Shown here: one piece after another, positions 532-30,100 of the stretch
How positions within the stretch are numbered: the stretch's first letter is position 1
Layout of the letters: the number at the start of each line of letters is the position of its first letter
Source of the DNA: Fistulifera solaris
Taxonomy: Eukaryota
Assembly: GCA_030295235.1 (NCBI GenBank)
Contig: AP026145.1
Location: 930,001-962,882, forward strand
Direction: 5' to 3'
Length of the DNA stretch: 32,882 nt
Position numbers and translations under genes: made by a program
The notes under the pieces: model-generated
What the model was told of the DNA's origin: nothing
Databases searched by the model: none
Seen by the model: only the letters and a program-made list of their open reading frames with translations

Positions 532-1838
532 CTAACCCTCATAATCTGGAATAATCTCAACACCGGGCAGCTTATCACCCGCCAAGAGTTCAAGCGTGGC
601 GCCACCTCCGGTGGAAACGTACGTAACCGAGGACGTCTTGTCAAAAGCAGCTAGGGCCGCCACACTATCACCGCCTCCAACGACGGTAATAGTACCGTTG
701 CGGGTCACTTTCTCGAGTTCGTCAACCAGCATACGAGTACCTTGATCGAAAGGGGCAATTTCGAAAACTCCCATGGGACCATTGAAGCAAATCTTGCTAG
801 ATTCAGCCAATGCCGATTTGAAGGAGTCAATAGTTGCCGCACCGCAATCAAGACCCATCCAGCCTTCTTCAATTCCGGCGCCGACTTTCATCTCAAATGT
901 CTTGGTGTCTTGAGGATCCATGGGACCCTTGGGAAATCCTTGCGCACAAACGGCATCGACAGGCAAAAGATCTTCTTACCAGCGGCTTCAGCTTGCTCTA
1001 ACAAGTTCTTGGCAGTATCAATCATGCCTTCTTCGACCAAACTGGTACCAATGTTGATACCCTTGGCTTTCAAAAACGTAAAGGCCAGGCCACCTCCCAA
1101 GATCAAATTATCCACGTTACTAAGAAGGCCTTGGATGACGGGAAGCTTGGTACTGACTTTGGATCCTCCGATGATGGCCGTGATCTTGTCGTCGGACGTG
1201 TGGCGGAAATCGAGAAAGGCCAGCTCGGAAGCGACCAAAATACCGATACCGACTTTACTCTTGTCCTCCATGCACGCCGGAACACCGTGTGTCGACGCAT
1301 GCGCACGATGGGCTGTTCCAAAAGCATCGTTGATGTAAGCATCGGCGTAACTGGCCAGAATTTGTGCCATTTCTGGATCATTCTTCTCTTCCTTCTTGTA
1401 AAAACGTAGATTCTCCAACACACAGATTTGTCCTCCAGACAATTGAGACACGATATCTTTCGCGTCGAGACAATCGGGAACAAATACGACATCTTTGTTG
1501 AGCAACTTGCCCAAGTACTCGGCAATGGGCTTGAGAGACAAGGACTGGCGTTCGTGACGCGTCGCATCATCGTCGGCGCCGGCTTGCACCAACTTGGGAC
1601 GTCCCATGTGACTGCACAAGACGGCATTGCATCCGGCGTCAATGACACATTGAATCGTCGGCAAAGCGCCACGGATACGACTATCGTCGGTAATGTTGCC
1701 ATTGGAATCCATGGGAACGTTGAAATCAACTCGAATCAAAAGAGTCTTGTTGGGCTCTCCGAGGGTTTCGAGAACATCGTATACGTTGCGTTTGCGGGTC
1801 GCGCCGACGGGCATGGGAGGAATTCCGGGTTGTGACAT
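532..1838 (-). CDS. PGK: Phosphoglycerate kinase (no obvious targeting peptide); one frameshift near 965-968
   Basis: Motifs RVDFNVP, SHMGRP, LENLRF, NDAFGTAHRAHAS, GGSKVSTK, NGPMGVFE, GGGDS and STGGGA. ORFs 888..1850 and 532..966 join if one base is restored in a T run (KIFLPVDAVC). Confidence 0.97.
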
Positions 1839-3264: not shown

Positions 3265-3590
3265 TGTGTTGTTTTCACGTCTCCAGAAAATCTGGGTGAG
3301 TGTTGTTTTCACCTGTCCAGAAAATCTGGGCGTGTGTTGTTTTCACTTGTCCAGAAAATCTGGGCGGGTGTGTAACGGGTGTGACTATGTAACGAATAAT
3401 TTTACTTGTTTTCACTTGTCCAGAAAATCTGGGCGGTTGTTGTTTTCACGTTTCCAGAAAACCTGGGCAGGTGTAGGAAATCGGGCGTGACTTACGTGTC
3501 CCGAGTCCAGAGATCTGGGCGTGTGTTCTTTTCACGTCTCCAGAAAATCTGGGAGTGTGTAGTTTTCACATATCCAGAAAATCTGGGTGA
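3265..3590. repeat. Tandem array of ~34-bp units GTTTTCACnnnTCCAGAAAATCTGGG (7 full plus 1 partial)
   Basis: Units start at 3271, 3305, 3339, 3408, 3442, 3528 and 3562, with a partial unit at 3507. The core CCAGA-AAA-TCTGG is an inverted repeat. Confidence 0.95.
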
Positions 3591-4204: not shown

Positions 4205-4303
4205 AGGAAAGAAGATAAAAAGTAATGACTCGTGATTACTATGAAAGAGAGAAATCTACGATCAATTTACATGTATCAGGAAACGCCGTCGTAGCATCCA
4301 TTT

Positions 4304-5229
4304 TCAGGCTTTCCCAACCGAAGTGTTGCAGCAACAATTTTCACATTCAGTTGCAGGCGGGGATATCGCTTTCGCGTTTTCGAGACAACATGATTTTGCG
4401 CAACAACAGCAACTACCGCACGAATGTAAGCATTCCAGATGTTTCAAGAGAAAGATTTCAATTTCTTTTAGATCACTCGATCGAAAGATCCAATACATCA
4501 CATACCACACGGTAAGAAGCATTCCCCAAAAGGCCCCATAGAAAGCTTTGAACCATCGTGCTGTGCACTTTTGATGCTGAAGCAAGGTTGCCATGTCTTG
4601 CCAGTGATGCAAGGCTCGACTACAAGAAGGATGGACGTTTTGCTCGATCCATGCGTTTTGCAAACAATCACTGGGAAAGCTTGTAGCTACGATCGGAGAG
4701 GAATGGCTCACAGGAGATTCTTCTGTCAAGCGACGGCGACTGGTTGATGTGCGAAGATATTGTGATGCAGCAACCGAAAAGGTAGTACGAGGAACAGAAC
4801 CTGTTGGTGATGTTGCTGAGTCAAGTATATTGCGTTTTTCAGTGCTGGAATCCAACGACTGAATCAAGTGAGGTGCACTGTCTCGTTCTAAAGCCAAAGT
4901 TAAAGTCCAGACGTCCATTTCCGGCGTTGCTGCAGCATGTGACGCCTCGGATGAGCCGCACAGTTCCCGCTCGTCTCGAAGACACAGATCGTGCACCGCT
5001 TCGTACGCCGCCTCCACATCTTCATAAGCTCTATTCCAGTAGTCGTTAAGCACTTGATCTGTGAGAAATTTAATAGAACGTTATGGAAATTTCAAGTACA
5101 TGAGAAATGATGGAAGAGTAAAGATAAGAAAGAGGCGTTTCTTCATTTCTTACATTGTCGAACGACCGAGACAGAGCACGCAATCGTCAATAAAAGAGTG
5201 AGAAACGACTGAAGCCTTGTCATTTTCAT
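4304..5229 (-). CDS. Single-pass membrane protein with short Cys-rich C-terminal tail (exons 5229-5154, 5058-4304); paralog of 8673-9991
   Basis: Exon 1 encodes a signal-like MKMTRLQSFLTLLLTIACSVSVVRQ. A phase-1 GTAAG...CACAG intron (5153-5059) joins in frame. Then RRRLTEES, a TM helix and the tail CGSCCCCAKSCC...CENCCCN. Confidence 0.8.
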
Positions 5230-6121
5230 TCTTATTTATAGAGATATAAAATAAAGTCGTTTATCAATTGCAAGGCGTTGATTACTCGTCCACTTTCGTT
5301 GCGTGTTATTCGACATGAGAAATGAGAACCCACCAAGCTCTTTTTTCTGAGAGTCACCTCTCCCGTGATCCTTTTCCCTTCAAAACTCGTGCCAGCGAAA
5401 GCTGCATGTCAGTGCCGGTGTTCGATGGTGTTCGTCGTGATACTCAATTGTTTATAGTCCCGTTCCAGTGCGTCCGTGTCTGTTTTCCTATGAGCAATCT
5501 TACCGGTACCCAATGTGTTATCTGAAAAACTTCAACTCGTGACTGTAAAGCAGTCGTGAAGAAAGGTAATATACATTCGGAGCTATAGTAAATATGAACG
5601 ACAACCATTTACGCTAGCCTTTTTGACCGTAAAGAATCGGTGCATGAAATACCAAGTGAAATACAATAAGTGCTGTTGTTAATACTTGGGTCGTGATAGA
5701 AAAGAATTTAGTTGAAAGGGTTGCAGAAAGACTGGAGTTGAACTTCGAACTACCAATCGAGCTCGAAAAACTGATTATTCATGGCTGAGCGAAATATGAA
5801 AGGCAGCAATCTCCAAAGCCATTTGGACGTAAGGATACGTTGTCTGCATTGCAGATGTGTTGCTTACATCGTAATTTACTTTCGATAGACCTAAATACAT
5901 TGTTGCGTCGCATGCTTGCAATACAGTAGCGATGATTCTTCAATTTCAATTGCTACTATGAGCTGAAGTGTACTGTAAAGGTATCTCTCGTTTTGCGTAA
6001 TGCAGCGCGCATTTTGCACTTTTGCATTGTCATTGTTGTGTAACTCATCATACGCTTCCATCATACGCAAGGTTGCAGCTGATTGAAGCGATAATTACTA
6101 CGACGAATTATAGCCTTAAAG

Positions 6122-7699
6122 ATGCCGTATCGACTATCAAAGTATGATAGTCTTTTGGAGGTAATTCCAGAGGAATTACGAACTCCCGAACAAGTCGCTC
6201 AGTGGCGCGGCGGGCACCAAACGCCTACTTACAAACTGCGTAGAGACCCACGAAATTTCTGCGAAGTCGAGCGGTATGAAGAAATGACAGCCATCTGGAT
6301 GGAAAATGAGACTCTTGTACAAGTGACGCAAGGAGTAAGGTTCCCTCATTTTGACAAATTTCAAAACGTTGAAAATAGCCTACGCTTGGTGGTCGCTTTG
6401 TTCAACCCCACAAGGAATATCGTGATTGAGATATCAGGAAAAGCTGATGACGCTGTTGCGGATACAGCCATGTACTGGTGGAGTCTACATTGCCCGAAAA
6501 CTGCGACCCTTGCCTAAGAATCGACAATCAATGTGATAAGTTTGACTTCGGAACCATCAAAATCAAGCATCTGGCTACACTTTTCGCGCGTAATCCGACC
6601 CGACGTTTACGAATTAACGGTGTGAAACTGAATTCGGATCAGCTGTCCTTTCTAGCCACTAGGGATCACCCGATCGATTTGACATTCGAGTACTCAAACG
6701 TTCTGGAAGATGAGGGTGATGCATTTGTGCGATCGCTTCAGATTCGGGAGCTCCCTTTTGGCTCGCTTCACTTTCTTGGCACAGCTTTTCCCATAAGTGA
6801 TGATAATGTTGAGCGACTTGTACAGCTACCGATTTTTGATAAGCTGACGCTACCGGAATGGGACGATGACAGAGAATTTCTCCCCTTTTCAGCCCGGTGA
6901 GGGCATTGGAATACCGAATTCATACCAGCAAAGTGCAGGCAGCCAATATTCAGGCTATAAATGTCGTACCTGAGGACCTGACCGTCAAAATATGGATCGA
7001 CGATTGGGACGATGGAGAGGAAGAAGCTACTTTGTCTTTGCTTAGTCGGCTGGCTGGTAGCGGACAGCTCCATCACCTTGGTGTGAAGTTCGAAGGCGGA
7101 GGCATTGATTTTGTTGAGCCGAATCACTCGAAAAGCATCTCGGAAGAACTTATCAAAACCGTGTTAGCAAACAAAGAGCTAGTATCCTTGGATATCGACG
7201 TCAGCTTCATTTTTCAGCAAGTTCATTTGACGGAATTTTTAGAATCGCTGGATGATCATAAAGCGTTGCATACCGTCACGATTGAAGTACACGAAGAAGA
7301 CGTAGACTTCTCCGATAGTTCGTGGTTGAAAATTCTGCTGTCTCGCAATCGACGCATTGAAATATATGGCGATTGGATGCTTTCTGTCATGAATTGGGAC
7401 GACCTTCATAAGGTGCATTCTTTCAACCGTTTTTACACTGGATGCAAATCTCTTAAAGAGTCAACGCGTTCCTTCCGAACAAAAATGTTAGTGACAGCCC
7501 TGGAAGAATGCGCTTGTCAAGACTTTAAGCGCACCGCCTTCTTGCTGACCAGCTCACCGACTCGTTGTGCGAATTGATTCAGTCGGTAATCCTTGACGTC
7601 GGCGACCTCACTGATGAGGATGAAAGCGAGTTCTCGGTTGATTCTTTTGAGCGATCATCTCGCATGAAACGTATTAGAACGGATTATGACAGAAAATAG
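6122..7699 (+). CDS. Hypothetical protein (LRR/RNI-like appearance) with three frameshifts (~6493, ~6895, ~7550); sequencing errors or pseudogene
   Basis: ORFs 6122..6517, 6478..6900, 6897..7577 and a final frame (TDSLCELIQ...DRK*) tile end to end. Two of the breaks are at CCC runs. Confidence 0.65.
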
Positions 7700-8038
7700 G
7701 ATCTCTAGTTCAGTCGCGGATTCGGTCTGACTCATTAATTGCTCTGGTAAAGCGCTTTGCTTGGAATCACCAGTGAAACCAAACAGCTAGGCATTGCTGT
7801 TGACAATCTATTTGAACGACATCAGTTTAAGTAGTTGTAGTAGACTTTTCTCCAACTATAAACTCGAGTTCTATCCCAATTTAAGCTACGAAACTTGCCA
7901 ACAAAAACTTGTCAAAGGAAAAAGCATTACGGAGTATAACATTGTAGACTAGGTCTACTACAAGGTGAAATGAATTAATAATATATATTTTCCTCTATAG
8001 ATAAACGTGAGATGCTCGTCTGTCTCTCTGATTGAACT

Positions 8039-8198
8039 TTACGAAGTACTGGTGTGCGTTTTGCAACAGGGGCACTCGGAGCAGCATTTGCAATCATCCG
8101 AGCGACTGCTATCATTTTTACAGCAGTGGCAGTTGTCACCGCACTTGCAATCGGGGGGAGCCGCATGGGCAATGAGTTGTAGGCGCGGAGGAAGTCAT
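8039..8198 (-). CDS. Metallothionein-like protein, 52 aa with 13 Cys; needs removal of one base from the G6 run at 8153-8158
   Basis: Corrected translation: MTSSAPTTHCPCGSPDCKCGDNCHCCKNDSSRSDDCKCCSECPCCKTHTSTS*. CxC and CxCC clusters, no aromatic residues. Confidence 0.8.
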
Positions 8199-8672
8199 GA
8201 TTGCGGATCGTCCTGTCTTACTTCTTCAAAAGAAAACGGGACATCAAGAAATAATGAGGAAAGAGTTGAAATAGTATCAAACGGCGACGACAAACATGAC
8301 AAGCGAGAACGTTCAAAGCTCAATTCACAAAACGATTTCTCCCGTAATGCGATGCTTACCTTCTCGTTTGTGAGTGCGAGGAAAATGAAAGTAAAGAGCA
8401 TTTAGTTTTGTTGTCATGGGTTCACGCTTCGGAAAAGATATCACGGCGAATTTCCATCGAAGAACCTGTTTTCAATAAGAACTACAATCTCGTCCTTATT
8501 AAAGGGGAACTCTTCCGATGAAAGATCGTGCATAATCGATGATTAAGATATGCGTGTTAGAGTGGATTTTAATGTATACGTGACCTGAAGAGGATTTACA
8601 ATCAGAACACAAAGTAAACCGAATCTTGGACTCACGGGCATAAATGAGATTGTAGAAATAAGAAGAAAAAAA

Positions 8673-9991
8673 TTATACGACGAGTATGCGAATCAACGTT
8701 TCGTCGTCATTTGTCGTGGGCAGTTTAGAAGCGGAAGAGGATCCACCACCGCAGCACGAAGCACAAGCTGCACTACAGAGGCCCGTGCCGTTGCAACAAT
8801 TGCAGCAAGTTTCACCAAGAAACGGATTGTCGGAAGAAGTCTTGCAGCAGCAGCAAATGCAAATATCGGCACCCTGCGCATCACGGTTGCTTGCTTGCTT
8901 ACGCTCCGAGCAGCAGCAGCAACTATCACTGCAGCAGCAGCAATCTTGAGAGCAGCACTTGGTTTCGTGGCAGCAGCCCTTTCCATTGCAGCATGCTCCT
9001 GCGCTGCAGCAACATTTGCCGGAGCAACATTCACCTGCGCTGCAACATCCCATGCTATTGCAACAATCATCTCCAGAGCAGCAGCAACAATTGCTACCGG
9101 AGCAGCATCCACCTTCACTGCAGCAGCAGCAGCCGTTACTGGAGCAGCATTTATTGCAGCACGAGCAGCAAGAACAAGCATCGGTTGCCTGAATCATCAA
9201 TCGTTTCATGATTCGAAACAACATCCATACGGCGTATCCAAACCACATGGCACAAACGAATATCAGCACCGTCTGGCACATCCATTTATGCAAATTCTGC
9301 ATTTCCCTTGTGCTTTGCAAATGATTCAAGGCTCGGCTACACTCGCGACGCACGCCTTGTTTCATCCAAGCCTCGTACAAGCACAAATCCGGGAAGGGCG
9401 ACGACTTGTGAGTGCAGGGAAACGACTCTTCCGTCAAACGACGATGACGCATCGTCTCGCTGCGCAGCTGAGTTTCTTGCATTTTCGCGACGTCATCGGA
9501 AGTCGATGCTTGGGGAAGCAATAGGAGGTCTCCGGCTTGTTCGCCTTCGTGATGATTCTCTTGATGACGATTGTCATGAATCCAAATCCAAGTGGTCGTA
9601 GAACCCACAAAGTGCGGAATACTTTCGGCTTGTTGAGATACCCACAAAAAGGTCATCAAAAGATTCGCTTCTTCCATGAGGAACGAAAATTCGGGAGTAT
9701 TGTAGTAACGCGGAGATTCACAGAATCGCCATTGATCCAGCTGACACTGTTCCTGGGCCATCTGATACGCCACAGCGACGTTTTTTTGCGTCATATTCCA
9801 CGACTTTTTCATTTCATATACTAGCGGCGTTTATAAGGGGTAATTTAGTGTAAAAAGATTAAGCAAAACGAAAAGCAGAAAGAGTGTCAGGCCATCACAT
9901 CGTGTGAGACGCTCGATCTTCGACATCTATTCTGCTTACATTGATAGATATTCGCCAAGAGAACAATCGCTAAGCCGTACATGTGTTTCAT
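8673..9991 (-). CDS. Single-pass membrane protein with very long poly-Cys (metallothionein-like) C-terminal tail (exons 9991-9940, 9820-8673)
   Basis: Exon 1 encodes MKHMYGLAIVLLANIYQ. Phase-1 GTAAG...CTAG intron at 9939-9821. Then RHRRLTEES, the TM segment VLIFVCAMWFGYAVWMLF, and about 53 Cys in about 145 aa as CC/CCC/CCCC blocks. Confidence 0.85.
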
Positions 9992-10503: not shown

Positions 10504-11598
10504 ATGACAAGATATCTGATAGTTTGGGCAGCCTTCGTGACAACGACGTCGTATGCCTTTGTTACGAGAAACGACGCTGCTTTCTCATCAATTCGTTTGC
10601 ATTCATCGCCACAATCGCAACCCGATGGTCGTCCTGCCGTCGGATACAATACTCCCAATAATATGCCTCCTCCTCCGGACTTCGCACCGCCCGGTGGAGA
10701 ATTAGCTCGGCCTCCCCAACAGCAGCCGTGGCAACCTCCTCAACAACAACAAGTGTGGCAGCAACAAGCTCCTCCCCAACGGGCCGGTCCTCTCAATCCA
10801 GATGACAACTGGAGACGCCCTCTTCAAGTAGATAATTATCAATACCGTACCGTTCAAGGAAATAGTCGGAAAACATTTAATACGATGGGAGGTCGCAATG
10901 AAGTCGAATTCTCCACGGACGGACGTGAACTCTATACCGACATGGAAGTGTGGCAGGGCCCCGACAACACACCGCAAACCATGAAGTGGTACGCTCAGGA
11001 TGGAAATCATCGCATTCGCGCGACTGTGACGTCCAGTCAATATCATTCCATCGAAACCAGAAACAGGGGAACGCTCGAATTCCCCATGAATGTACAAATG
11101 CAACCACAAGCACCCGGTTCTCCAACGGAACAACAACACCAACCCTTTCACGGCACCAATTCCGTTCCGGCAGTCGAATTTCGTCCCATCCCGAGTCATG
11201 AGGATCGCATGGCGAATCGCGATCCGAGTCGCGGCACGACCATTCAAGGAGATGGCAGTGTCAAGACGTACCCGATTGACCCTTACACGTCCAGTGTCCA
11301 AGTATTGCTGGACGGGCAAGGATTTCCAGTATACGCTCGCATTGAACTGTTGCAAGGACCGGATTGTGTCAAAATATTGGGTGAATTGTACAACGATGGC
11401 TTGCAAAATGGCGGTGAACCGGTCCGGACGGTTTTGGAAACACCCGGATACGGCAGTACACTTCGTGTGGTCAACACGGGGCCGATGGAATATCCCATCA
11501 TTTGCACCGTCGCCCCGGCTTCGTATGGTGAGCCAGTGCACAGTTATCAGCAACAGCAGAGTGTCTTTGATTCGAATGGACGGTATATCGGGTATTGA
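10504..11598 (+). CDS. Algal hypothetical protein with two internal repeats and a probable bipartite plastid presequence
   Basis: Signal peptide ending SYA-F (ASAFAP-like) and a P/Q-rich linker. Repeated module VQGNSRKTF..WQGPD..GTLEFPM / IQGDGSVKTY..LQGPD..GPMEYPI. Confidence 0.85.
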   Translation: MTRYLIVWAAFVTTTSYAFVTRNDAAFSSIRLHSSPQSQPDGRPAVGYNTPNNMPPPPDFAPPGGELARPPQQQPWQPPQQQQVWQQQAPPQRAGPLNPDDNWRRPLQVDNYQYRTVQGNSRKTFNTMGGRNEVEFSTDGRELYTDMEVWQGPDNTPQTMKWYAQDGNHRIRATVTSSQYHSIETRNRGTLEFPMNVQMQPQAPGSPTEQQHQPFHGTNSVPAVEFRPIPSHEDRMANRDPSRGTTIQGDGSVKTYPIDPYTSSVQVLLDGQGFPVYARIELLQGPDCVKILGELYNDGLQNGGEPVRTVLETPGYGSTLRVVNTGPMEYPIICTVAPASYGEPVHSYQQQQSVFDSNGRYIGY

Positions 11599-11960: not shown

Positions 11961-13376
11961 ATGAGACGAAATAATTGCTTTTTAGGCTGTCTGTTGCTTC
12001 TTTTGCAGCAAAAATCACAAGGAGACGGCATTCAACAATCGGCACATCGGCAACTACAAGCAACAATCGACGCCACAACAGGCGATCTTACTGTTCTTGC
12101 TGGAACGGACTTTTGCTGTTCAAATGGTCTTCCGACATCAACCTCGTCGGCTAGCGCGGCGGCGAAGAATCGTCGAATGCTAAATACTCAACCGCATATT
12201 GGATGGACGGATCCGGGTGATTGGGTGGCTTATCCAGTGGAAATAACTTCGGCTGGTACTTATCAAGTTCACTTTCATGTATCCAGTCCATTTGGTGACG
12301 GAGGATTCGAGTTGGTGGATTTACAAACGCAGCAGTTATACGGAACCGTGGATACCATGCCCGTGACTACGAGCTGGGACACGTTTGAAACTATTTCTCT
12401 GCCCGTCACGTTGCCGGCTGGTCTCGTTTCGTTGCAAATACGACTATTGTCAGCCGGTTGGAATCTGTTGTGGCTAGCGGTAAGCAGCGAGGATAGTGTC
12501 GGAAGCATTCCGGGTGTAATTGTACCGCCACCGTCACCGGATGTAATTCTATCTCCCGACACCACTGCAATTCCAACAATACCCGCTGTGAGTAATCCAG
12601 CTACATCGACAGTAGCCCCCAATGTGACAGTGGCATTCGATGAGGTTACGTCTTTTCCTTCCATGAGCAGTTCCTCTTCAGAAACAATCATGCCAACACC
12701 AAATAATGCGACGTCACCAGTTCTTCCGATGCCGACACCGAATACAATTGCCACACCTTCGGTTCCATCCATACCGGTTGCTGTCCCAGTCCCTGCACCT
12801 TCGGCAACATTGCCTTCACCTCTAGCCACTGCTCCCATTCCATCTCCTTTGGCTGGCCCGACATCTACACTGCCAAGCGTTCCAGCCGCCAAACCACCGC
12901 ACAACAAACGTCCCTTCTTACACGAATTTATTACGTTCGAAGATTTTACGCGCACATCTCCCGACATTGTATGGCAGACGAGTGAAACGGAACAGCGCAC
13001 ACAAGCGGTTGAGTTGAAAACGGGCGACTGGATGGAATTTCAGTTAGCGATTCCCGTGGCTGGTCCGTATCAAGTACACGTTCGCACGTCCAGTCCCAAT
13101 GGAGAAGGTTCCTTTGAACTGGTTCACGTCGAGATGAACGAACTAACTCGGAACGAAACGGAAGTTTCGTTGGGTATGTTTACAGGATTCCCCACAACTG
13201 GTTCTTGGGAGGAGTACCTTCGAATGGAGCAAGAAATCACTTTACCAGCCTCGCCTTTGGGCGATGGCTTGTTGATGCGCATCAATGTTTTGGAGCCAGG
13301 ATTCAGTCTATCGTGGCTGTACATCGAACCTAGTGATCTATGGGACGCGATTGATGCTAGAGACGATGCAAACTAA
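11961..13376 (+). CDS. Secreted protein with two CBM6-like modules joined by a Pro/Thr/Ser-rich linker
   Basis: Signal-like N-terminus. Modules IGWTDPGDWVAY..SAGTYQV..TTSWDTF..GWNLLW and KTGDWMEF..AGPYQV..TTGSWEEY..GFSLSW match the CBM6 pattern. Confidence 0.85.
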   Translation: MRRNNCFLGCLLLLLQQKSQGDGIQQSAHRQLQATIDATTGDLTVLAGTDFCCSNGLPTSTSSASAAAKNRRMLNTQPHIGWTDPGDWVAYPVEITSAGTYQVHFHVSSPFGDGGFELVDLQTQQLYGTVDTMPVTTSWDTFETISLPVTLPAGLVSLQIRLLSAGWNLLWLAVSSEDSVGSIPGVIVPPPSPDVILSPDTTAIPTIPAVSNPATSTVAPNVTVAFDEVTSFPSMSSSSSETIMPTPNNATSPVLPMPTPNTIATPSVPSIPVAVPVPAPSATLPSPLATAPIPSPLAGPTSTLPSVPAAKPPHNKRPFLHEFITFEDFTRTSPDIVWQTSETEQRTQAVELKTGDWMEFQLAIPVAGPYQVHVRTSSPNGEGSFELVHVEMNELTRNETEVSLGMFTGFPTTGSWEEYLRMEQEITLPASPLGDGLLMRINVLEPGFSLSWLYIEPSDLWDAIDARDDAN

Positions 13377-14471
13377 ACAGTGGAAGAACAAGAGTTGAGA
13401 TGACTCATTCGTTCTATCATGATCCTGCAAAACGAAGCAATTCGGGCACTTAAACGGGCACTGACGAACAGGCTGTGCTTTCGATGATCTTGGACTCCCA
13501 TTGATAAGTTTATTTGTTTTTCTCCCTCAATTAAAAAGCATGGAGCGCGACCACGTCTGTTTAAGACTAAAGCATGACGCGTTGAAAACAATGTAGCAAC
13601 TTGACTGTTATCAAGTATGGTAGAAAAAAAGTTTCGTGTATAGTCTTATGATTACTCTGGCGCAACTTTCGTCACTGGACAAAGACTTTCACAACAATGC
13701 TCCGTTGTTTCGAGTAGCGGCGCCCATACATAGTTTTGTTAAGTCCCGAGTCTCGAGTCAGTCTGTAACCATTTTGCGGTTTGCACTTTGCGTTCATGTA
13801 TGATAAATCTTACCTAACCCCTTTTCACTATTGATGAGCCTGTAGTCGTTAGTGACACAGCCTGTACTTTATAAAACAAAATTGATTTTTTTAATATTGC
13901 CTTATGCACGTAATACAATAAGGAGAAAGGACAAGAGCCAATCAAAACTCACAGAGAAAAGAAAGGCATCCGTTTTCCGTAGTTTTTGTTTTTCCTTCAA
14001 GATACAGAACATAGTGCACGATAAGGATATTTAGAAGTTGCTCGGGATCCTTCAAATCCCACCCTACTTAAAGTTTTGCACTCTTTTAAAGACTAAGCAA
14101 ATTGGTCTTAGAGCATCAACCTTTGGTCCCACTTTTTAGTACAAGAAAAAGACATTCCAAATTTATTTAGGGGAAAGTGTGACATCGGCATAAATCCGAA
14201 AGTATTAGACATCTCAGGTGATTACGCCGTATTTATCCTTCGGTCGAGATTAAGCTCCGTTGGGACGGCTATTCTGCGCGCCATGGACCTGATAGAATTC
14301 ACGGTAAAGTGTAGTCGGTATTCGTTAGGCTTCGCCTTTAGGAATAGCTGATCGTAAAAGCCCTTTCCGACCAAGAAAGGACAAGATGCTTCACACAAAA
14401 TCACGTTTGTTGCCCCTCGTTTTTGTTTCGTTTCTTCATTTCCTTGCAAAGAAAGACAACAACAAATAGCC

Positions 14472-16069
14472 ATGTATCGATCACTTCTTATCAGTTTATT
14501 CTTGACATTGGTCCCTCGCGTGTCTGCAGAATGCGACGGCACTTGTACGCCCGACGGCGAAGCCTGTCAAGTCGATGGAATGCCGTGTTGCGAAACGGGA
14601 AGCTCTTGTTACGGATTCAACTTTTACAAGAAATGTCAGCCCCCTCCTCCGTGCTTGCGCGAATGGTTTGATTGCACGAGCGGAATGGCGGGTAATGTGC
14701 CGTGTTGTGACGGTATGGAATGTGTTTTGGGTGACGGCGAGCAATACGAATGTCAGCACATTTACGAGCCGATTCTTGTGGAAGACGTTCCTACTACTCC
14801 CGTGGCTCCTGTGGCTCCCGTTTCTGCTCCGGTCGAATCTACACCTGTTGCTTCTCCGGTCGAGCCGGTCGCAGAAGAAGAAACGGCCCCGATCACTCCT
14901 TGGTCGCCCGCCGATGAAGGTTACTTGTTCTTTGCGAACATGACCAACGCAGGTTCGCAAGATCCTTCGGCCTCAAATTATCAAGTGGTCGCCAAGGCTT
15001 ACATCAAAGCCGATTGTGCGGGTCCTCACTTGTGCATTTACGTCATGGCAGAGCCCGGTGTGGCTATTTCGTCGAACGAAGGATGGTTCAAAGATTATAC
15101 TTATTCGACTTCTACCATTCCCTTTGTCGCACCCGGATTGACTTTTCGCGAAGAGAATGGAGTGATTGTTGGTTGGTTTGGCTGCGTCACGGTTCCCTTT
15201 GATCTAGGAGCGACCGGAATGGGAGTTGAAATTCACGCCAATTGGGGACTAAAAGGCTCCAACTCGTTCGGGAACACGGCTTCTACTGGTAAAACGGGAA
15301 CTGCATTAGTCACCATGGAATATCCGGTATGCTTGAAACCGGCCTTTGTAGAAGGAGAAACGGCCCCCGTCGCACCGACTCCTCAGGCGACCCCCATTGC
15401 CGCACCGATCGAGTCTCCCGTCGCCGCACCAACTCCTACGTCTTCCGGTGCGATTGCCCCGAGCCCGGTCGCGGCCCCCACTCCGGTAGCTACTGAAGAA
15501 GCGGCACCGGTCCCCGTGACCGCTGCGACTCTCACAGAGGAAGGATGGACGTCGCTCTTCAGCATGTACAACGCTGGAAACCCCGACACGACGACTTCCG
15601 GCTACCAGTTGGCAGGAAAAGCGTGGTATAAGTACGATTGTGCGGCGCGATTGATCTGCTGGTTGGTCATGGCGGAGCCTGGCTTGAAATTTCCGGAACG
15701 GAAGCATGGTTCAAGGACTACGGTCATGGCAACAGTGCGGTAGAAGCCGTAGCTCCCGGCGTCACCTTCAAGATGACCAACAATGTCCGCACTGGCTGGA
15801 CTGGATGCTTCTATGAGCCCCTCGGCGCCACCGGGTCCATTGAAGTGCACGCCAACTACGGAGTCGCTGGAAGCGGAAAACTCGGCAACACCATGTCGAC
15901 CGGTAAATCAAATACTTTGGGCGGATACGCCAAGATCGATTACGATCACCACTGTGTTGGATTAGCTCCCACGTGTGCGGCTGCCGGTGCTAAATGCAAC
16001 GGAAGTATGCCGTGCTGCAATGGGCGAACGTGTCCGACCAGTGGCCCGAAAGTGTGCCCGAGCAAATAA
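14472..16069 (+). CDS. Secreted modular protein: 2 knottin-like modules, PA/T-rich linkers, two copies of a ~130-aa unknown domain, C-terminal knottin; frameshift ~15690
   Basis: Signal peptide and 6-Cys modules. ORFs 14472..15743 and 15638..16069 join at a T run, which restores alignment of the second domain copy with the first. Confidence 0.85.
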
Positions 16070-20108: not shown

Positions 20109-20606
20109 TGTCAAGCAAATTCAAATTGCGCTTACGACACGATTGATTCGCAAATCCGTTTCGCTTTAATTCTACACGAGTAACGCTAAAATTTTTAAGC
20201 GTAATAACGCACGTCGAAAATGATGAGATTATTGCAACAATGACAATACAAAAGGAAAATGATCGATGCGTCTTCTTCCTTGTCGGTCGATCTCGTCTTC
20301 GCGTGTTTGCTTCGATGACGACGATCGGCGATGACAGTCCAGTTTGTACTAGTTAAAATTGGTTTACGCGGATACTATGTCCATCCGTTACTCCACATTT
20401 AGACCCTTCAGTCTCGCATCGCGCTCTCGCAGCCTCTCAATTCATCTCATCGACATTTTTGTTTCTCGTCGTCAATAACAAAGTCATCTTCTCGAAAACA
20501 TGCATCTTATTATTCTTTTCTTATCTTTTCTTCTTATTAATATCCTTCCTATGAAATACTCTGTCACACATCAACAGAGAAGACAACAATTCTCATTTCA
20601 ATTCGT

Positions 20607-23539
20607 TTACTTGGGACGGCACTGACCGTTGGTGCAAACATCGCGCGTCGTATCACAGCACGGCATCGTGCTGCTGCAAGCATTCCACTGAGGAGCACAC
20701 GAGGGCTGGCACTGTCCGTTCTTGCAAGCGAAGCGACTACTATTGCAGCAACCAGCACCCGTCGAGCAAGGTTGCCAGTCATTAGCGCACGAAGTAATCG
20801 TCGGCTTGCACTGACCTCCCTGGCAACTGTAATTCTTCGAGCAGCAACCCTTCGTGCTACTGCACGAGTTCAATCGAAAGCACAGTTCGGCTGACAGGTT
20901 CCATTCGTACACGCGTAACCGCTGTTGCAGCAACCAAGAGTCGAAGTGCAGGGCTGCCAGTCATTTCCGCACGTGGGTTTCGGTTTGCAAGTTCCACTTT
21001 GACACGTGTACGAAGTATCACAGCAACCGAGTTCGGAAGTGCACTGCTGCCAGTTTCCTCCGCACGTTGGCTTGGGCTTGCAAATACCTCCTTGGCAGGT
21101 GTGAGTGCTATCGCAGCACGGTTGATCGGCACTGCATTGACCCCAGTTGCTGGCGCAAGCGGCCTGGCACTGAGAAGTGGCGAATCCCCTGACTGTCGGT
21201 GAACGAAACACATTTCAACGGCTTGGGACCATCCTGGCAACAGCCAACATACGCACAGCTCTGCCATTCGTTGACACACTTGGGAAGTTTGCGACATGAA
21301 CTGCGTCCGTATTCAGTGACACACGTCAAACCATCACAGCATTTGAAATCGGCACTGCAAACTTGCCATTCGTGGGCTTGGCACGTAGGAACGTTACGGC
21401 ACGTCTTGCGTTGCGAGTGGACATCGGTGATGCACTTGAGACCGTTGCAACAATCCACGCCGAGACTGCAATCTTGCCATTCGGGCATGCACGTGGGAAG
21501 GTTACGGCACTGCGCTGTTCCATCGGGAAGATCGACGCACTTCAAGCCGTTGCAGCAACCGACATCCTTGCACGAACGCCATTCGGGCATGCAAGTGGGC
21601 AAATCCATACACGTCTTGGGACCCCAAGGCTGTTGCACGCATTTGAGATTACCGCAGCAAGGAGTAAGCGTACCACAATTGGCCCATTCACCGACGCATT
21701 GTTGTTCATTTATGACACATTCCTTGGCGAAACCATTTACTTGAGCACATTTGAGACCGTTGCAGCAGCTAGAGACATCGCATTCACCGCCCTTTCCGTT
21801 ACATGTAGTCGCCACGGCTTTGCGACTCGCGACCGTACTCGCTGCAGCTTCCACTCCCATCAAACGAGCATCAATGATGCACATGATTTCATTTTGCAAA
21901 GCTCAATCACTTTCGGGTCCACGTCTCGAAGATATTCTTCAACGGTACTGCCGTGCGGCAAGTTGCAATGCATGATATCTTCAAACCAGTCCAAACCGAG
22001 CTCCTTGTGCGCAAAGAGAGAGTCGGCCTGTTCGCGAATGCACCAATGGGTCGTACAGTAATCGTATCCAGCCCATCGCAATCGGTCCGTCAACGACGCC
22101 GGAACCGGCAACAATTCACCATCGCGTGTCTTCCAATCGTTTGAGGTGTCGCCATCTGCCGAACCGAACATACCGGTGGTCTTGTCGACATCCGGAACGT
22201 GCGTGCAAACTTCAAAATAGCAACCATTGGCGTACGCGACGTTGGCGGTGACTTTGAACTGCGATGCGGTGTACAGAATTTCGACAGTTTTACGCGTCCA
22301 CGTAACCTTGACCTTGGGAGAACCGGAACCATCGTTCAAATCGCGCTGGACTCCATCGACATAGAACAAAACTTTGCAGTTCTCTTGTCCGATGGTGTTA
22401 GGCGCAAACGAATCCGGAAAGATGGGAAAGGAAAGCTCGACCTTGGGCGTATCACCTTCATCTTGAGTGACAAAACCCTTAACGACGGCCCATGCCCTAT
22501 ATAGAAGGAAGGTTTAGCATGGAGTGTTAGATGACTATAGTTTGAATGACAAGCATTTGACGCCTTTCGACTTACCAACCAGGGCTGAAAATATCGGCAA
22601 AGAATGCGAAGCGACCTTGGACTTCGCGCTGCGTGATGGTCGATTTCATCAAAGTGAACTCTCCTTCGGCTCTGATGGATGATAAGACAATTTGAGGTCA
22701 AACATAGGCAAAAAGTTGCTCAATTGCGCCCACAAAAAGATCCACTTACTGGCAATCATAAGCTAACGGTGGGTTGAAAGTTACAAGTTTTGTGTGAGGA
22801 AAGTTGGTGTTGTGAGATAATGAGAGATATCGCGAACAAATTACAAAGCAAAACCAAAGCAAAACAGCACATTCAGCAACCAAACCCAAACCAGGGGCGA
22901 TTTTTTCTTACCAAGACCATCGAAACTGGAAAGTGGGGTGGTGTGAGATAATGAGAGACAGGGATATCCGCACGGAACACCAAAATTTTCGTACCTATAA
23001 ATGTGTGGGTCACCGACCGCACAAGCCGTCTTCGTTTTGACTGCTGCTCCAGGAATAGCTGTAGTCTTCAAGTTTGGTCCAGTGGGTGGCAAGGTCGGAG
23101 CCGGCGTTGGAATTTTAACCGGAGCGACAGGAGCCGCAACGGGAGCGGCCACAGGAGTCGGCAAAGGAGCTGGCACAGGGACCGGAACAGGAGCCACAAA
23201 AGGAGCACTTGTTGAGATGAGGTCAGCACCCGTCAGATTGGTCTCGAGGGTGCGAACTTGACATTCGCTCGCCCCGCCTTCTGTAACGGCACAGACGAGA
23301 TCTCCACAACAAGGCATTGAATTACTGCAATCGTACCATTCAGCAAGGCACGCCGGAGGAGTTCGACAACGCTTGAAGAAGTTGTAGCCGAAGCAACCAA
23401 GGCCATCGCAGCAGCCCTCTGGGTTGTGCGTGCATCCTTCATTCTCGGCGATACAAGTGCTTTCCGCGCATTCTTCCGCAGCCGTAAAGGACACAACAAC
23501 TGCTAACAACAGCAAGTACAAAGATCTTTCGATCTGCAT
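20607..23539 (-). CDS. Secreted GDPH/VWD-domain protein with 2 N-terminal and 12 C-terminal knottin-like repeats (exons 23539-22995, 22925-22912, 22762-22750, 22671-22576, 22496-20607); frameshifts ~21895, ~21187, ~20871
   Basis: Splicing four GT-AG introns gives GDPHIYSFDGLAYDCQAEGEFTLMKS (VWD start) and, later in the domain, TTGMFGSADGD. The repeats follow C-x6-C-x4/5-CC-xn-C-xn-C with a conserved Trp. Confidence 0.85.
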
Positions 23540-24449
23540 GATACGATTGTGTTTCTTTTGTTTGTATTTTCTCTCTTTCGTCGAGGAATGAGAGAGAAGT
23601 GATTTGTCGAACGAAAAAAAGAGACGAAAAGTTTTGCGTTTTTGTTTGCCGCAAAGTCTTGCTCCGAGACTTCCCCACTGTTCAACATAAAGTGTACTTC
23701 TGAATGTCATTGTGTGAGTCAGTTGCAGTAGTGAAAACGGTGAAATTTTTCGAAACGTTAACCTTAAGGGTCATTATTTTCCGTGCTAAACAGTAAGGTA
23801 CACTACAAATACCCAGCAAGATTCCCAACAACAACAGTTTAATATAAACTATGAATTAAATTGTAGTGGTCACAAGTCACAGACACGATAACCGATAAGA
23901 TCTATGTAGTAGGTACTGTACTGACACACTAACACTTGACAAGACAACGACCAACGACATTCTCTGTTAAGTATTTACTGTTTTTTGTTTCTTGTAGATC
24001 GTGAATGACATTTTCTCATAACTCATAACACTCATAAACCACTACGACCAGAACGATAAGAAGTAAACAATGACCCAATATTTTTTCTCGCATCGCATCT
24101 CGCATGTTCGCATTTGACCGTCTGACCCCTGCCCCAAGAGAAAGCATGCCCCCTGCGCTCCAACCTCTAACTTACTTTCGGTTCCAACAAAACAGCAAGG
24201 GTGTCCTTCGTTGCTGCTAAAAGTGTTCATTCGTTTGAAGTGTGACAAAGATGCAGAGCACCACGCGCTGGCTAACCACACAATCTACTAGGGGGAGGCT
24301 CACCACCTCACCACCCTTCCCGAAAAAAGCGGTTTTTGTACAAGACGAAGAATGAATGATATGCTTGCCGTGGTATTGCCGTTTGCAGCAGATGAAAGCA
24401 AACGAAGGACGAATCTTTTTCAATCTTCTGCGAGAGTCGTATGTGCATG

Positions 24450-27112: not shown

Positions 27113-30100
27113 GATTGTAAAACACTATACCCTCCTGGATAGTGTGCTGAAGCGTAGGGTCGCGCCTACTTTTTCCTCCGTTCGATTGTTGTCGTCTCTC
27201 CCGTCCGGTCGAGGGGTGACTAACGATTCACGACAGAGGTGCAATTCCTTCGAGTAATTGTCAGATTAACAGTGCATAGCGATTCTCTCGTTGAAGCTTG
27301 TCTGTCCATACAAGTTACTCTCGTCTGTTTGAGTGATTCATTCTTCCTTCTTTCGTCGTTACCGCAGCATGGGTAAAGGCAAGAAAGCGTGGCAAGGCAG
27401 CAAGGCGCCCGTCTACCACCTCGGTAACACTCCTGACCAGGTTGATGAGACCAAGACTCAGAGCGTTGATGCCGATGGACGTTCTCTTGATCCGGATCCT
27501 GACAAGAAGGAAGAAAAACAAGTCGGACGACAAAGAAGAATCGAAAGAGGAACATGTTGAAGTGAAAGTCGAAGACACAGGACAAAGTGTCAAAGAAGAG
27601 AAACCCAAGGGATTAACTCCCTTTCAACACATCATGTTCAATGTGTTCGAATTGTATGAGGATGACCCTCTACACAAGGCTTTAGTGCACAACGGGATGG
27701 CTACTTGCGTACATTTGAAGTTCGACAACGATCCGCGGTACTTCAGCGTCGATTAGCTACCGCGAAATGGGAAATACTATTACACCAATCCCTGGAGCTA
27801 TTATATCTTTTACGAGGTTCTACCGGTTCATTAAGTCACTTCTTCCCCGCGAATTCTGTGACGAGACAGCTTTCTTTGGTTTGACTTGTGACATGTGGGA
27901 AGAGTTTGATATAAAATCCACGGCCGAATGGAATGCTCCTGTTGAGCCGACTCCTGAAGGGTATCGCACTCCGCCTACGCATGGAATTGCCGATCAAGAC
28001 CGCTCTGGCTCCGGCGAAGGCACAAATCTTCCAGAAGACTAAAGCGTAACGAAACTGCCTTCATGGTTCTAAAACATCAGAACCAGTGGTTGGATTGGTA
28101 TGATTCCACGCGCCGTCATGCGAACAATCAAGATTGCAGCGCCGTTTTGGATCCAGACTACGTGCGGACACTGATGAAGGCGAGGAGCTGTTCAAATATC
28201 AAAAGCGGTACATGCTGGCAGTGTTTGACACCATCCTCAAGACCGAGAAGAGTCGTCAAATCTTGAATGCCCATAACGATGATCAGGACGCTCAAGCCGT
28301 TTTTCGCGAAGTGGTGGAGTACTACCGCGAACTTCGGCGAACTTCGGAGTTAACGGCACAGGATCTGCTCTCGAAGTTGATGCAAGCTCGTATGCTCCGC
28401 GGACGGTAAAGGTATCCGATATGAGACTGACCTCCTCAAGTTTCACGAGAAGCTACGCTATTCACGATTTGTTGGTACCTCCGTCTGAGCGACTCTCTGA
28501 TGCATTGAAGAAATCACTTGTCATCAACTTGATCAAGGGAATTCCGTGCTTGATGAGCGTCCGCAGTGAAAGCCAATATCATGGGTGTTGGAACTGGATG
28601 CGAGTTTGACTTTCGACAAGTACATGGAAGGATTGAATCTCGCTGCACTTTCGATCATGACGATTTGTATCGAGGAACTGGAAGCTCCAAGGCAAACAAG
28701 CTAATGGTGTATAACCATGTGCTCTTTGGCGGCGTAGAGTGCAGCGGTGGTGGATTGTCGTCTCAAGATGACTTGTATGAAGCATACATGGCTTCCGGTC
28801 AAAGTGGATACTTTCCCAAGCTCACTTTCGTGAGCAATGGTCAAAACTTTCGCCCGAGGATCAAAGCGTTTGGGATCAGCTTCCCGATGCAGGCAAGTCT
28901 ACTATCATGCATTAGATGAACATGGCGTCGAAACCTCTGCCTCCGAAGCGAAGCAAAAAGTACCCAGGCACACTCCGCAAGGTCAACTTCAACGATCACG
29001 GATCTCAGCTCGGTTTCACTCGGAGGCGTGTTGAATGCTTATGTCCATGGTCGTGGCGACTCCTACGAGGAAGACGAGGAAGAAGAATCGCCACCGATCG
29101 AAGTCAATCAAGCCAACACCGGTACTGGACACGGCAAGAATGAAAAGTATCCGACTCATCCGGCCTCTTTTCATCAAGCGGCTCGAGAAAAGCGTTACCC
29201 GAAGAGTGGGGAGAACAGTACAGCGAAACGTGGTGTCCATTTCAGTCGTCTTGAAGCGAATGCTGCACACACTTATTCTGTCAGCAACCATCTTCTGGGA
29301 GACTCCAAGAAATCTTTGATCGATCGTGGAGCCAACGGTGGCGTTGCAGGTGAGGACATCGCGACTGATTAGGTACAGTTCCTGACCGGTTTGTCGACAT
29401 TCAAGGCATCGATAACCATCAGTTGCCAAAAGTTTTGATTGCAACCGTGTGCGGTGTCATTGAAGACACAAGTTGGAGAGCAGATTGCTATTTTCAATCA
29501 GTACGCCTACGGGCCGTGGAGTCAGTATCCATTCCTCAGGCCAATTGGAGCATTATGGCCACAAAGTTGACGACCGGCTCCGTCAAAGTTGGGGGTACCC
29601 AGCGCATTCTAAGGCATGGGGGTACATTATGCCACTCGTCATGGTCCGAGGTCTATGCCGATTGGAAATCCGACCTTTCAGTGACAAAGAATGGCGTGAT
29701 TTGCCACATATCTTCATGACGAATGATGAGGAATGGGATCCGAGTGTTCTTGACCACAAAATGGAAGAGAAGCGAGTGGATTGGTCCGCCACCTCCGGCA
29801 CTGGAAGACACGTCGAACCAGAATATCTTTGGCAATTTGGTGAATACCGTGAGTACATTGATGCTTACATCACGGATGGTGTTATTGCCAACGCTATTGC
29901 GCGAGTTGTTGCCAATGTCATCATGTCTGTGCCGCCATTCGACCCAGGAGAAGACCACGATTGCATGGACCCAGTCCAAGACATCGTGGACAAGTTGACT
30001 ATTGCCGATCTTGAGACAAACCCTTCTGTGCCAACAGAAGCCGCAGTTCAATCGATTGATCCGCCAACCCGGTACCTCGCAGTTGACTCTTCCGGAGAAA

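What the first reader, a model, noticed from the sequence alone, without database searches (positions are those of the whole stretch)
4304..9991. Candidate metal-handling cluster: soluble metallothionein between two paralogous membrane-anchored poly-cysteine proteins
Seen: three co-oriented minus-strand Cys-rich genes within 5.7 kb, namely a 52-aa/13-Cys peptide and two paralogous signal-lumenal domain-TM-poly-Cys proteins. An unrelated opposite-strand gene (6122-7699) interrupts the cluster. Established: CxC/CC-rich small proteins without aromatics are typical metallothioneins, which are normally soluble. Inference: a system pairing a free metal buffer with membrane-tethered thiolate arrays (sensing, or metal hand-off at a vesicle or plasma membrane). 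I do not recognise this combination as described.
Basis: partly seen in the sequence, partly recalled or inferred. Interest (0 to 1): 0.8.

Follow-up and report, generated by a model that had tools for sequence, protein, structure and literature searches.

The report
Diatom metallothionein beside cysteine-tailed membrane proteins
A diatom carries an overlooked small metallothionein-like gene next to two related, undescribed membrane proteins, one with a metallothionein-sized cysteine tail facing the cytoplasm; the genes are real, but nothing yet shows that they work together on metals.

Summary
The three genes are real and lie in Fistulifera solaris (gene A = FisN_7Hh398). A (399 aa) and B (276 aa) have introns confirmed by spliced contigs. 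They are paralogous only in the lumenal/TM part. The 52-aa, 13-Cys peptide needs one base removed. That base is probably an assembly error: another copy is intact, a second strain lacks the base, dN/dS is about 0.15 and all 13 Cys are kept in three copies. No public protein matched it.

A and B belong to an unnamed family (signal, 4-Cys lumenal hairpin with an RxL-type motif, 1-3 TM, cytosolic tail). Tail Cys counts run from 1 to 55. Only A has a true poly-Cys tail (53 Cys in 181 aa); B has 12.

The adjacency is conserved in both subgenomes and unlikely by chance: 400 kb of background held no genuine Cys-dense segment. Against a dedicated system: three other family loci have no metallothionein nearby, and a duplicate metallothionein stands alone. 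Peptide and tails show no shared ancestry, and nothing shows co-regulation.

Best reading: a soluble metallothionein beside a membrane protein with a metal-binding (Zn/Cd) tail, working independently. Palmitoylation is a serious rival, especially for B.

The parts
4304..5229 (-). Gene B, 276 aa: signal peptide, lumenal 4-Cys domain with RRL, one TM, short tail with 12 Cys
   Evidence: Splice model; RNA joint 5058/5154 and poly(A) ends near 4216-4223 in X3 and X4; family profile
5059..5153 (-). Intron of gene B (95 nt, GT..AG)
   Evidence: Joint in runs X3 and X4
4484..4546 (-). Predicted TM segment of B (AFYG...YWIF)
   Evidence: Read from the sequence; part of the long confident helix in the model. 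It fell below my Kyte-Doolittle cut-off of 1.6, so it is inferred from the alignment with relatives
4307..4483 (-). Cytosolic tail of B, 59 aa, 12 Cys (CCCC, CC, CCC)
   Evidence: 10 of 12 Cys columns kept in the C22 homoeologue; dN/dS 0.32
6122..7699 (+). Interrupting gene of a large F. solaris multi-copy family; no Pfam match; frameshifted in the assembly
   Evidence: At least 151 matches in G000; indels; mostly deleted in the C22 homoeologue, where only the last ~200 nt remain
8039..8198 (-). Metallothionein-like gene, 52 aa and 13 Cys once the extra base near 8153 is discounted
8213..8359 (-). Probable 5'-UTR intron of the metallothionein gene (GT..AG at matching places in the C21, C22 and C40 copies)
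   Evidence: Sequence comparison; inferred, not seen spliced
7677..8663 (-). Stretch duplicated to G000:C40: metallothionein with its upstream and downstream DNA, without A or B
   Evidence: blastn 87.6% over 1021 columns; the same loose end at 8663 in runs X1 and X2 matches the C40 junction
8673..9991 (-). Gene A (FisN_7Hh398), 399 aa: short signal-like N-terminus, lumenal 4-Cys domain with RRL, one TM, 181-aa tail with 53 Cys
9821..9939 (-). Intron of gene A (119 nt, GT..AG)
   Evidence: Joint in run X3
9216..9272 (-). Predicted TM of A, followed at once by RIMKR (positive-inside, so the tail is cytosolic)
   Evidence: Hydropathy 2.04; the positive-inside rule is established knowledge
8907..9179 (-). 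Poly-Cys block of A (91 aa, 40 Cys, Gly/Ser/Asn/Asp spacers, no aromatics), specific to A and its orthologues
   Evidence: length differs between homoeologues by in-frame indels; one extra codon in strain X2 at 9119
8676..8867 (-). C-terminal Cys module of A (CxCCK...P...E-S/T-CCxxCxGxGxCxxxCxxCC), shared with unlinked paralogues
   Evidence: Alignment; 0 of 1000 shuffles reach the score for 4 paralogue tails; 35 bits to the C13 paralogue

Best explanation
Two kinds of gene sit side by side. (1) The 52-aa peptide is a soluble, cytosolic metallothionein, built of two similar D-C-K-C...C-x-CC-K halves, that buffers Zn/Cd/Cu. The window's frameshift is an assembly error. (2) A and B are an old tandem pair from an unnamed family of secretory-pathway membrane proteins: a lumenal helical hairpin with four invariant Cys (probably two disulfides) and an RxL-type processing site, then 1-3 TM helices, then a cytosolic tail. 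Many members end in a small conserved Cys module that probably binds Zn. In A alone, TGC-codon expansion has added a 40-Cys hydrophilic block, making a metallothionein-sized thiolate tail tethered to a membrane. It most likely loads Zn/Cd, as the di-Cys tail of plant HMA4 does, with a few membrane-proximal Cys possibly palmitoylated. The genes are probably kept together as a loose neighbourhood. The metallothionein does not need A or B, and no direct hand-off is assumed.

Shown: gene models, splicing of A and B, selection, family, synteny in the two subgenomes. Inferred: topology, disulfides, metal binding, location, independence of action.
For: Peptide: 25% Cys, no aromatic residue, only CxC and CxCC clusters. 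This meets the definition in PMC7216689 section 5. dN/dS is 0.14-0.17, with 13 of 13 Cys kept in three copies. The C40 copy is an open frame. Contigs of run X2 with window-like letters lack the extra base, and both X1 and X2 show the same single-base difference from the assembly at five other places nearby.

Tail of A: 53 Cys in 181 aa, 29%, polar spacers, against 54 Cys in 181 aa for TpyrMT-2, where CCC and CC clusters are typical (PMC4862169 passages). dN/dS is 0.34 and 45 of 48 Cys columns are kept. A precedent for a metal-binding di-Cys tail on a membrane protein is HMA4 (PMC6255694 abstract).

Independence: the metallothionein is found at only 3 places in G000. The C40 copy has no family gene in 20 kb, and three other family loci have no metallothionein in the 10-18 kb scanned.
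Against: No Pfam or NCBIfam model matches the peptide or the tails, and metal binding was not measured. The C22 copy carries an extra base at the same run as the window, so a shared real frameshift is not fully excluded. In run X1 the only listed contig over that place carries C40-type letters. The Cys adjacency is unlikely by chance, which argues for more coupling than this reading grants. The model of the C-terminal module is of low confidence (pLDDT 46.6). One antisense frame gives the same dN/dS (0.32) as the tail, so dN/dS alone does not fix the frame; the splicing direction and the continuous ORF do.
Confidence: 0.45

Rival explanations
1. A dedicated metal-handling cluster. The three genes are co-regulated by metal, and the soluble metallothionein exchanges Zn/Cd/Cu with membrane-tethered tails on a vacuole or plasma membrane, for sequestration or sensing.
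For: Gene order is kept in both subgenomes at dS about 0.3. The metallothionein starts 474 nt after A's stop. There is no genuine Cys-dense segment in 400 kb of background. Peptide and tails show no common ancestry, so local duplication does not explain the adjacency. Acidic dileucine motifs occur in 5 of 20 and YxxPhi motifs in 3 of 20 family proteins, hinting at endosome or vacuole sorting. Orthologues of A and B in another assembly share the same longest-contig length, 18,310, which suggests one contig.
Against: The lone C40 duplicate is intact, and other family loci lack a metallothionein. Tails with 1-2 Cys occur in the family. B's tail is short and unrelated to A's. An unrelated gene sat inside the group already in the common ancestor of both subgenomes. 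A's dileucine motif is missing in its homoeologue and orthologue. There is no animal-type MRE in about 500 nt upstream of any of the three genes; this is weak, as that motif is recalled and not established for diatoms.
Confidence: 0.18
2. The tails are lipid-modification or scaffold elements. A and B are RxL-processed trafficking or silica-vesicle membrane proteins whose cytosolic Cys are S-acylated (like CYSTM/CYSPD proteins) or cross-linked, and the metallothionein is a neighbour by accident.
For: The architecture signal-RxL-TM-cytosolic tail is that of diatom SAPs and SiMat7-like proteins (PMC5647440, PMC5501833 passages). An RxL-like motif occurs in 16 of 20 family proteins. The first Cys cluster lies about 14-19 residues after the TM in A and B. 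Yeast CYSTM proteins, once read as metal-tolerance TM modules, proved to be palmitoylated (PMC10840359 abstract).
Against: 53 acyl chains on a polar Gly/Ser/Asp tail is implausible (inference). The family has four invariant lumenal Cys rather than eight, and no Ser-rich block of the SAP type. Chance adjacency is disfavoured.
Confidence: 0.27
3. A's poly-Cys block is a weakly constrained TGC-repeat expansion with no special role, and the family's function lies in the lumenal domain and the C-terminal module.
For: The block differs between homoeologues by in-frame indels and has the highest dN/dS in A, 0.46. One extra codon occurs in strain X2. Tandem Repeats Finder reports 21-nt arrays there. 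Only A-type proteins have it.
Against: 32 of 34 aligned Cys columns are kept at dS about 0.27 (alignment favours Cys matches), and a third assembly retains a 53-Cys tail (P0005).
Confidence: 0.07
4. The window's metallothionein and its C22 homoeologue are true pseudogenes, and only the C40 duplicate is functional.
For: Both copies have one extra base at the same run, and X1's listed contig there is of C40 type.
Against: Window versus C22: dN/dS 0.17, with all 13 Cys kept on both sides of the break. X2 contigs with window-like letters lack the base.
Confidence: 0.05

Closest known systems
Metallothioneins (sequence definition of Ziller and Fraissinet-Tachet as cited in PMC7216689)
   Same: The peptide is small (52 aa), 25% Cys, has no aromatics and no signal peptide, and has CxC/CxCC clusters
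   Different: No match to any Pfam metallothionein model or public protein; metal binding untested. That review (2020) lists a predicted diatom MT only for Thalassiosira
Tetrahymena subfamily 7a Cd-metallothioneins (e.g. TpyrMT-2, 181 aa, 54 Cys; PMC4862169)
   Same: A's tail has near-identical length, Cys count and share, and CC/CCC-type clusters
   Different: A's tail is fused to a TM and a lumenal domain. It has CCCC runs and Gly/Ser spacers. No homology was tested or is claimed
Plant HMA4 P1B-ATPase cytosolic C-terminal extension (PMC6255694)
   Same: A di-Cys-rich cytosolic tail on a membrane protein; in HMA4 it binds Zn with nanomolar affinity
   Different: A and B have one TM and no transporter or ATPase domain; tail function untested
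CYSTM/CYSPD proteins (PMC10840359)
   Same: Membrane-bound proteins with C-terminal Cys clusters, linked to metal tolerance and palmitoylation
   Different: CYSTM proteins are 60-150 aa with 5-6 Cys in the anchor itself. A and B have a signal, a lumenal domain and a separate TM; no Pfam match
Diatom SAPs and SiMat7-like/silicanin proteins (PMC5647440, PMC5501833)
   Same: Signal peptide, RxL motif, lumenal domain, TM, cytosolic C-terminus
   Different: Four invariant lumenal Cys rather than eight; no Ser-rich block; Cys-rich tail; direct homology could not be tested
Cys_rich_FGFR / GLG1 repeat (PF00839), a resemblance recalled from memory
   Same: C-x2-D-x4-C ... C-L-x(n)-C spacing of the four lumenal Cys
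   Different: The halves are separated by a 45-110-residue low-confidence insert; no Pfam match for full proteins or halves

Membership tests
Metallothionein (peptide 8039-8198) | Small, at most 300 aa | tested here: met
   52 aa; definition
Metallothionein (peptide 8039-8198) | 15-35% Cys in CxC/CC/CxCC-type clusters, under 10% aromatic | tested here: met
   25% Cys, 0 aromatic, 3 CxCC + 2 CxC
Metallothionein (peptide 8039-8198) | Protein-coding gene under constraint | tested here: met
   dN/dS 0.14-0.17, 13 of 13 Cys kept in 3 copies; the frame in the window needs one base discounted
Metallothionein (peptide 8039-8198) | Homology to a described MT family | tested here: inconclusive
   No Pfam, NCBIfam, PDB or protein-database match; MT families are mutually unrelated
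Metallothionein (peptide 8039-8198) | Binds several d10 metal ions in thiolate clusters; metal-inducible | not testable with these tools
   Needs biochemistry and metal-stress RNA data
Metallothionein (tail of A as a domain) | Cys share, clusters, few aromatics | tested here: met
   29% Cys, 2 aromatic residues in 181 aa
Metallothionein (A or B as whole proteins) | Soluble cytosolic protein with 15-35% Cys and no TM | tested here: not met
   Signal, lumenal domain and TM are present; B is 6.5% Cys overall
CYSTM/CYSPD | Small protein whose C-terminal 5-6 Cys segment is the membrane anchor | tested here: not met
   276-399 aa, with a separate TM before the Cys tail; no Pfam match
SiMat7-like/silicanin | Eight conserved Cys in the lumenal domain | tested here: not met
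   Four invariant or near-invariant lumenal Cys versus eight
SiMat7-like/silicanin and SAP | Signal peptide + RxL + TM | tested here: met
   RRL in A and B; RxL-like motif in 16 of 20 proteins; signal judged by eye and hydropathy only
SAP (silicalemma-associated proteins) | Ser-rich lumenal block and conserved 28-aa cytoplasmic domain | tested here: inconclusive
   No comparable Ser block seen in A or B; no SAP sequence was available for direct comparison
Cys_rich_FGFR/GLG1 repeat PF00839 | Profile match | tested here: inconclusive
   No match for full proteins or halves; the genome search rang nowhere, controls included
DnaJ-type zinc finger | Paired CxxCxGxG motifs (recalled) | tested here: inconclusive
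   One motif in 7 of 20 proteins, a second only in the three A-type proteins; no Pfam match; model pLDDT 46.6

The most novel reading that the evidence does not exclude
F. solaris has a membrane-tethered metallothionein: a single-pass, RxL-processed vesicle or vacuole protein whose 53-Cys cytosolic tail loads well over ten Zn/Cd ions. It is kept next to an independently evolved soluble metallothionein because the two are co-induced and exchange metal at the membrane. That would be a metal-detox gene cluster in a eukaryotic alga, built from an undescribed protein family.
Probability: 0.15. Interest if true: 0.8.

Novelty: new variant of a known kind. Interest (0 to 1): 0.45.

Why it matters
Diatom metal tolerance is usually credited to phytochelatins, and a 2020 review lists a predicted metallothionein for only one diatom genus (PMC7216689). 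This gives a concrete, selected, unannotated candidate in a species that can be gene-edited (PMC13276009, seen as a search listing). Gene A offers a direct test of whether a metallothionein-sized domain works while tethered to a membrane by a protein that is not a pump. The family behind A and B has no name or profile, and its RxL-TM architecture places it among candidate diatom vesicle proteins whichever reading holds.

Tried and rejected
RNA cover of the metallothionein: runs X3 and X4 (RNA by guess, contigs only) have no contig over 8009-8430. No RNA holder is on record, so this is not used as evidence, and contig depths were not used to rank genes.

Homologue searches: the peptide found none among proteins of 28-91 aa. 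A's lumenal part found 2 of 102 candidates. The family profile found 2 of 6509. The ESM Atlas gave no usable hit for P0002 or P0020.

Profile search: 19 hits; I dropped 2 (P0018, P0023) as repetitive ORFs without the family anatomy.

Synteny outside G000: the metagenome scan matched 194 stretches and confirmed none. A loose Cys pattern gave 117 stretches, 80 listed. The 65 translated matches were Cys-rich readings of simple repeats, none like the peptide, and no family gene was in the flanks. Linkage in other species therefore stays untested.

Folds: the model of B is confident only for a helical hairpin and the TM helix. Foldseek gave no match at E<=0.001, and the best Z was 7.8 to generic coiled coils. 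The C-terminal module model was too poor to search. PDB sequence searches gave nothing significant.

Origin of the peptide from a family tail: rejected. Against 14 tails, the Cys-fixed shuffle test gave 17-932 of 1000 reaching the score; the best single case does not survive 14 tests. The positive control gave 0 of 1000 for 4 of 6 comparisons.

My early note that the interrupting gene is an insertion absent from C22 was wrong: C22 keeps its 3' end, so it is a deletion there.

Earlier findings of the scan: none. Supplements of PMC5935921 hold no mention of the gene ids or of metallothionein; bioRxiv supplements could not be seen. No complex prediction was run, since no binding is claimed.


Full report
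Setting. The window is G000:C21:930001-962882, ending in TTAGGG telomere repeats. Gene A is identical over the 215 residues searched to the named record FisN_7Hh398 of Fistulifera solaris, and the record's 399 residues match my splice model. G000:C22 is a collinear homoeologue at about 80-85% identity, and it encodes FisN_7Lh398.

Gene models. A: ATG 9991, intron 9939-9821, stop 8673. B: ATG 5229, intron 5153-5059, stop 4304, 276 aa. Contigs of two RNA-like runs skip exactly these introns (A in X3; B in X3 and X4), and B ends in poly(A) near 4220. A and B align over the lumenal and TM parts (E=3e-14, 29% of 214 columns). Their tails do not align better than shuffles (359 of 1000). A's tail has 53 Cys in 181 aa: a 91-aa block with 40 Cys, then a C-terminal module with 13. 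B's tail has 12 Cys in 59 aa. Basic residues follow A's TM directly, so the tail is read as cytosolic. B has a clear signal-like N-terminus and one later hydrophobic helix, which gives the same topology. This is inference; no signal or TM predictor was available beyond hydropathy, and B's TM fell below my cut-off.

The peptide. In the window the frame from ATG 8198 stops after 20 codons because of a six-base run near 8153. G000 holds three copies. C40 is an open 52-aa frame with 13 Cys; C22 has one extra base at the same run as the window. Both DNA-like runs lack a base at 8153. In X2 two contigs do so while keeping window-like letters at four nearby sites where the C40 copy differs; in X1 the single listed contig is of C40 type. 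Both runs also differ from the assembly by one base at 6019, 6492, 6892, 7752 and 8666. Comparing 50 codons on either side of the run gives dN/dS 0.14-0.17 at dS 0.16-0.30, with 13 of 13 Cys kept in all three pairs. I conclude that the gene is intact and constrained and that the shift is very probably an assembly error. It has 25% Cys, no aromatics, three CxCC and two CxC clusters, and an internal repeat. That meets the definition in PMC7216689. No public protein of 28-91 aa shares words with it and the exact sequence is not in the collection, so it appears to be unannotated.

The family. A profile of six G000 lumenal domains found 19 proteins among 1.84 billion representatives. I kept 17 and dropped 2 repetitive ORFs. 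None of the 17 carries a name beyond 'hypothetical protein', and the only organism named in their clusters is F. solaris, so the taxonomic range is unknown. The conserved core is C-x2-D-x4-C, a variable insert, R-R/x-L, then P-x2-C-L-x3-W/F-x4-V-x3-C-S-x-A-L. AlphaFold places it as a confident helical hairpin running into the TM helix, with the insert and tail unresolved; fold searches gave only generic helical matches. No Pfam or NCBIfam model fits. Among the 18 proteins tabulated, Cys after the lumenal domain range from 1-2 (P0021, P0019) to 53-55 (P0005, A); all others have 17 or fewer (the P0011 count is whole-protein). The C-terminal module of A is truly homologous to the tails of unlinked, multi-TM paralogues (0 of 1000 shuffles in 4 of 6 comparisons; alignment). 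It holds CxxCxGxG in 7 of 20 proteins. Acidic dileucine motifs end 5 of 20 and YxxPhi motifs 3 of 20, but A's own dileucine is not kept in its homoeologue. The reading of these motifs is recalled knowledge. The poly-Cys block is therefore a special feature of A, added to an older Cys module.

Is the group a cluster? For: the order B, peptide, A is the same in both subgenomes. In 40 evenly spaced 10-kb stretches, all 5 segments with 8 or more Cys per 30 aa were shorter frames overlapping longer ones, while the window has three segments with 10-15. Counting A and B as one tandem event, zero in 400 kb puts the chance of such a neighbour within 5 kb below about 4% (rule of three, my estimate). The peptide shows no ancestry with any of 14 tails, so local duplication does not explain it. 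Against: three further family loci (C13, and two on C14, one of them with an in-frame stop) have no metallothionein in the 10-18 kb scanned. A 1-kb duplicate carrying only the metallothionein has stayed intact on C40, with no family gene in 20 kb; its junction appears in both X1 and X2. The interrupting gene belongs to a family with at least 151 matches. It was present in the ancestor of both subgenomes and is mostly deleted in C22. Linkage outside G000 could not be tested. The only hint is an equal longest-contig length for orthologues of A and B in another assembly.

How it most likely works. The peptide buffers Zn/Cd/Cu in the cytosol (about 0.8 on its own). A presents a polar 53-Cys tail on the cytosolic face of a secretory-pathway membrane. 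Its size and clustering match the largest Tetrahymena Cd-metallothioneins (181 aa, 54 Cys), and the di-Cys tail of HMA4 shows that such tails on membrane proteins bind Zn. I put metal loading of A's tail at a little over even. B's short, membrane-proximal Cys patch is as likely to be palmitoylated, as yeast CYSTM proteins turned out to be. The signal-RxL-TM plan is shared with diatom silica-vesicle proteins, though the eight Cys of SiMat7-like proteins are absent. Direct hand-off between peptide and tails is possible but has no support beyond adjacency.

Literature seen. PMC7216689: passages and section 5. PMC5501833, PMC5647440 and PMC4862169: passages. PMC6255694: outline and abstract. PMC10840359: abstract and start of the introduction. 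PMC5935921: supplement search only, no hits. PMC13276009: search listing. Passages of one preprint were read and nothing here rests on them. Searches for a described combination of metallothionein with a membrane-anchored Cys-rich protein and for F. solaris cysteine-rich proteins listed nothing on this; one search showed 15 of 274 papers, and the library lacks most subscription journals.

Verdict. What stands is an unannotated diatom metallothionein candidate and an unnamed membrane-protein family, one member of which has a metallothionein-sized tail. A functional cluster remains a minority reading. New variant of a known kind; interest 0.45.

Noticed in passing
window 10504-11598 (+): Gene directly upstream of A matches Pfam DiatomPyrShell (PF25192, E=6e-49): a pyrenoid shell protein.
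   Followed up: no
window 532-1838 (-): Phosphoglycerate kinase split over two frames, in C22 as well at a similar place; probably the same kind of assembly indel or an unmodelled intron.
   Followed up: partly
window 3266-3590: 34-nt tandem repeats. Similar TCCAGAATTTCTGG-type motifs flank the duplicated metallothionein on C40, suggesting a mobile element moved it.
   Followed up: partly
window 4480, run X3: A 217-letter loose end leaves gene B just after its TM. It was not found in the regions held; possibly another 3' end or a chimeric contig.
   Followed up: partly
G000:C14:469135-470004 (L153:5135-6004): A further family member interrupted by an in-frame stop before its second TM region.
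   Followed up: partly
G000:C13:596837-597928 and C14:574937-575908: The syntenic family members on C13 and C14 are only 34% identical. In another assembly their two relatives (P0007, P0008) share a longest-contig length, hinting at an old tandem pair with reciprocal loss.
   Followed up: no
window 11961-13376 (+): Secreted protein with two CBM6-type domains and a Pro/Thr linker.
   Followed up: no
window 14358-16069 and 20541-23770: Secreted proteins with short 6-Cys repeats and Pro/Ala linkers; the three ORFs tested there had no Pfam match.
   Followed up: no
window 27700-31050 (+): Fragmented frames that look like a decayed LTR retrotransposon (recalled resemblance; the two ORFs tested had no Pfam match).
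   Followed up: no
window 32385-32882: TTAGGG telomere array, about 82 copies; the group lies about 23 kb from the chromosome end.
   Followed up: yes
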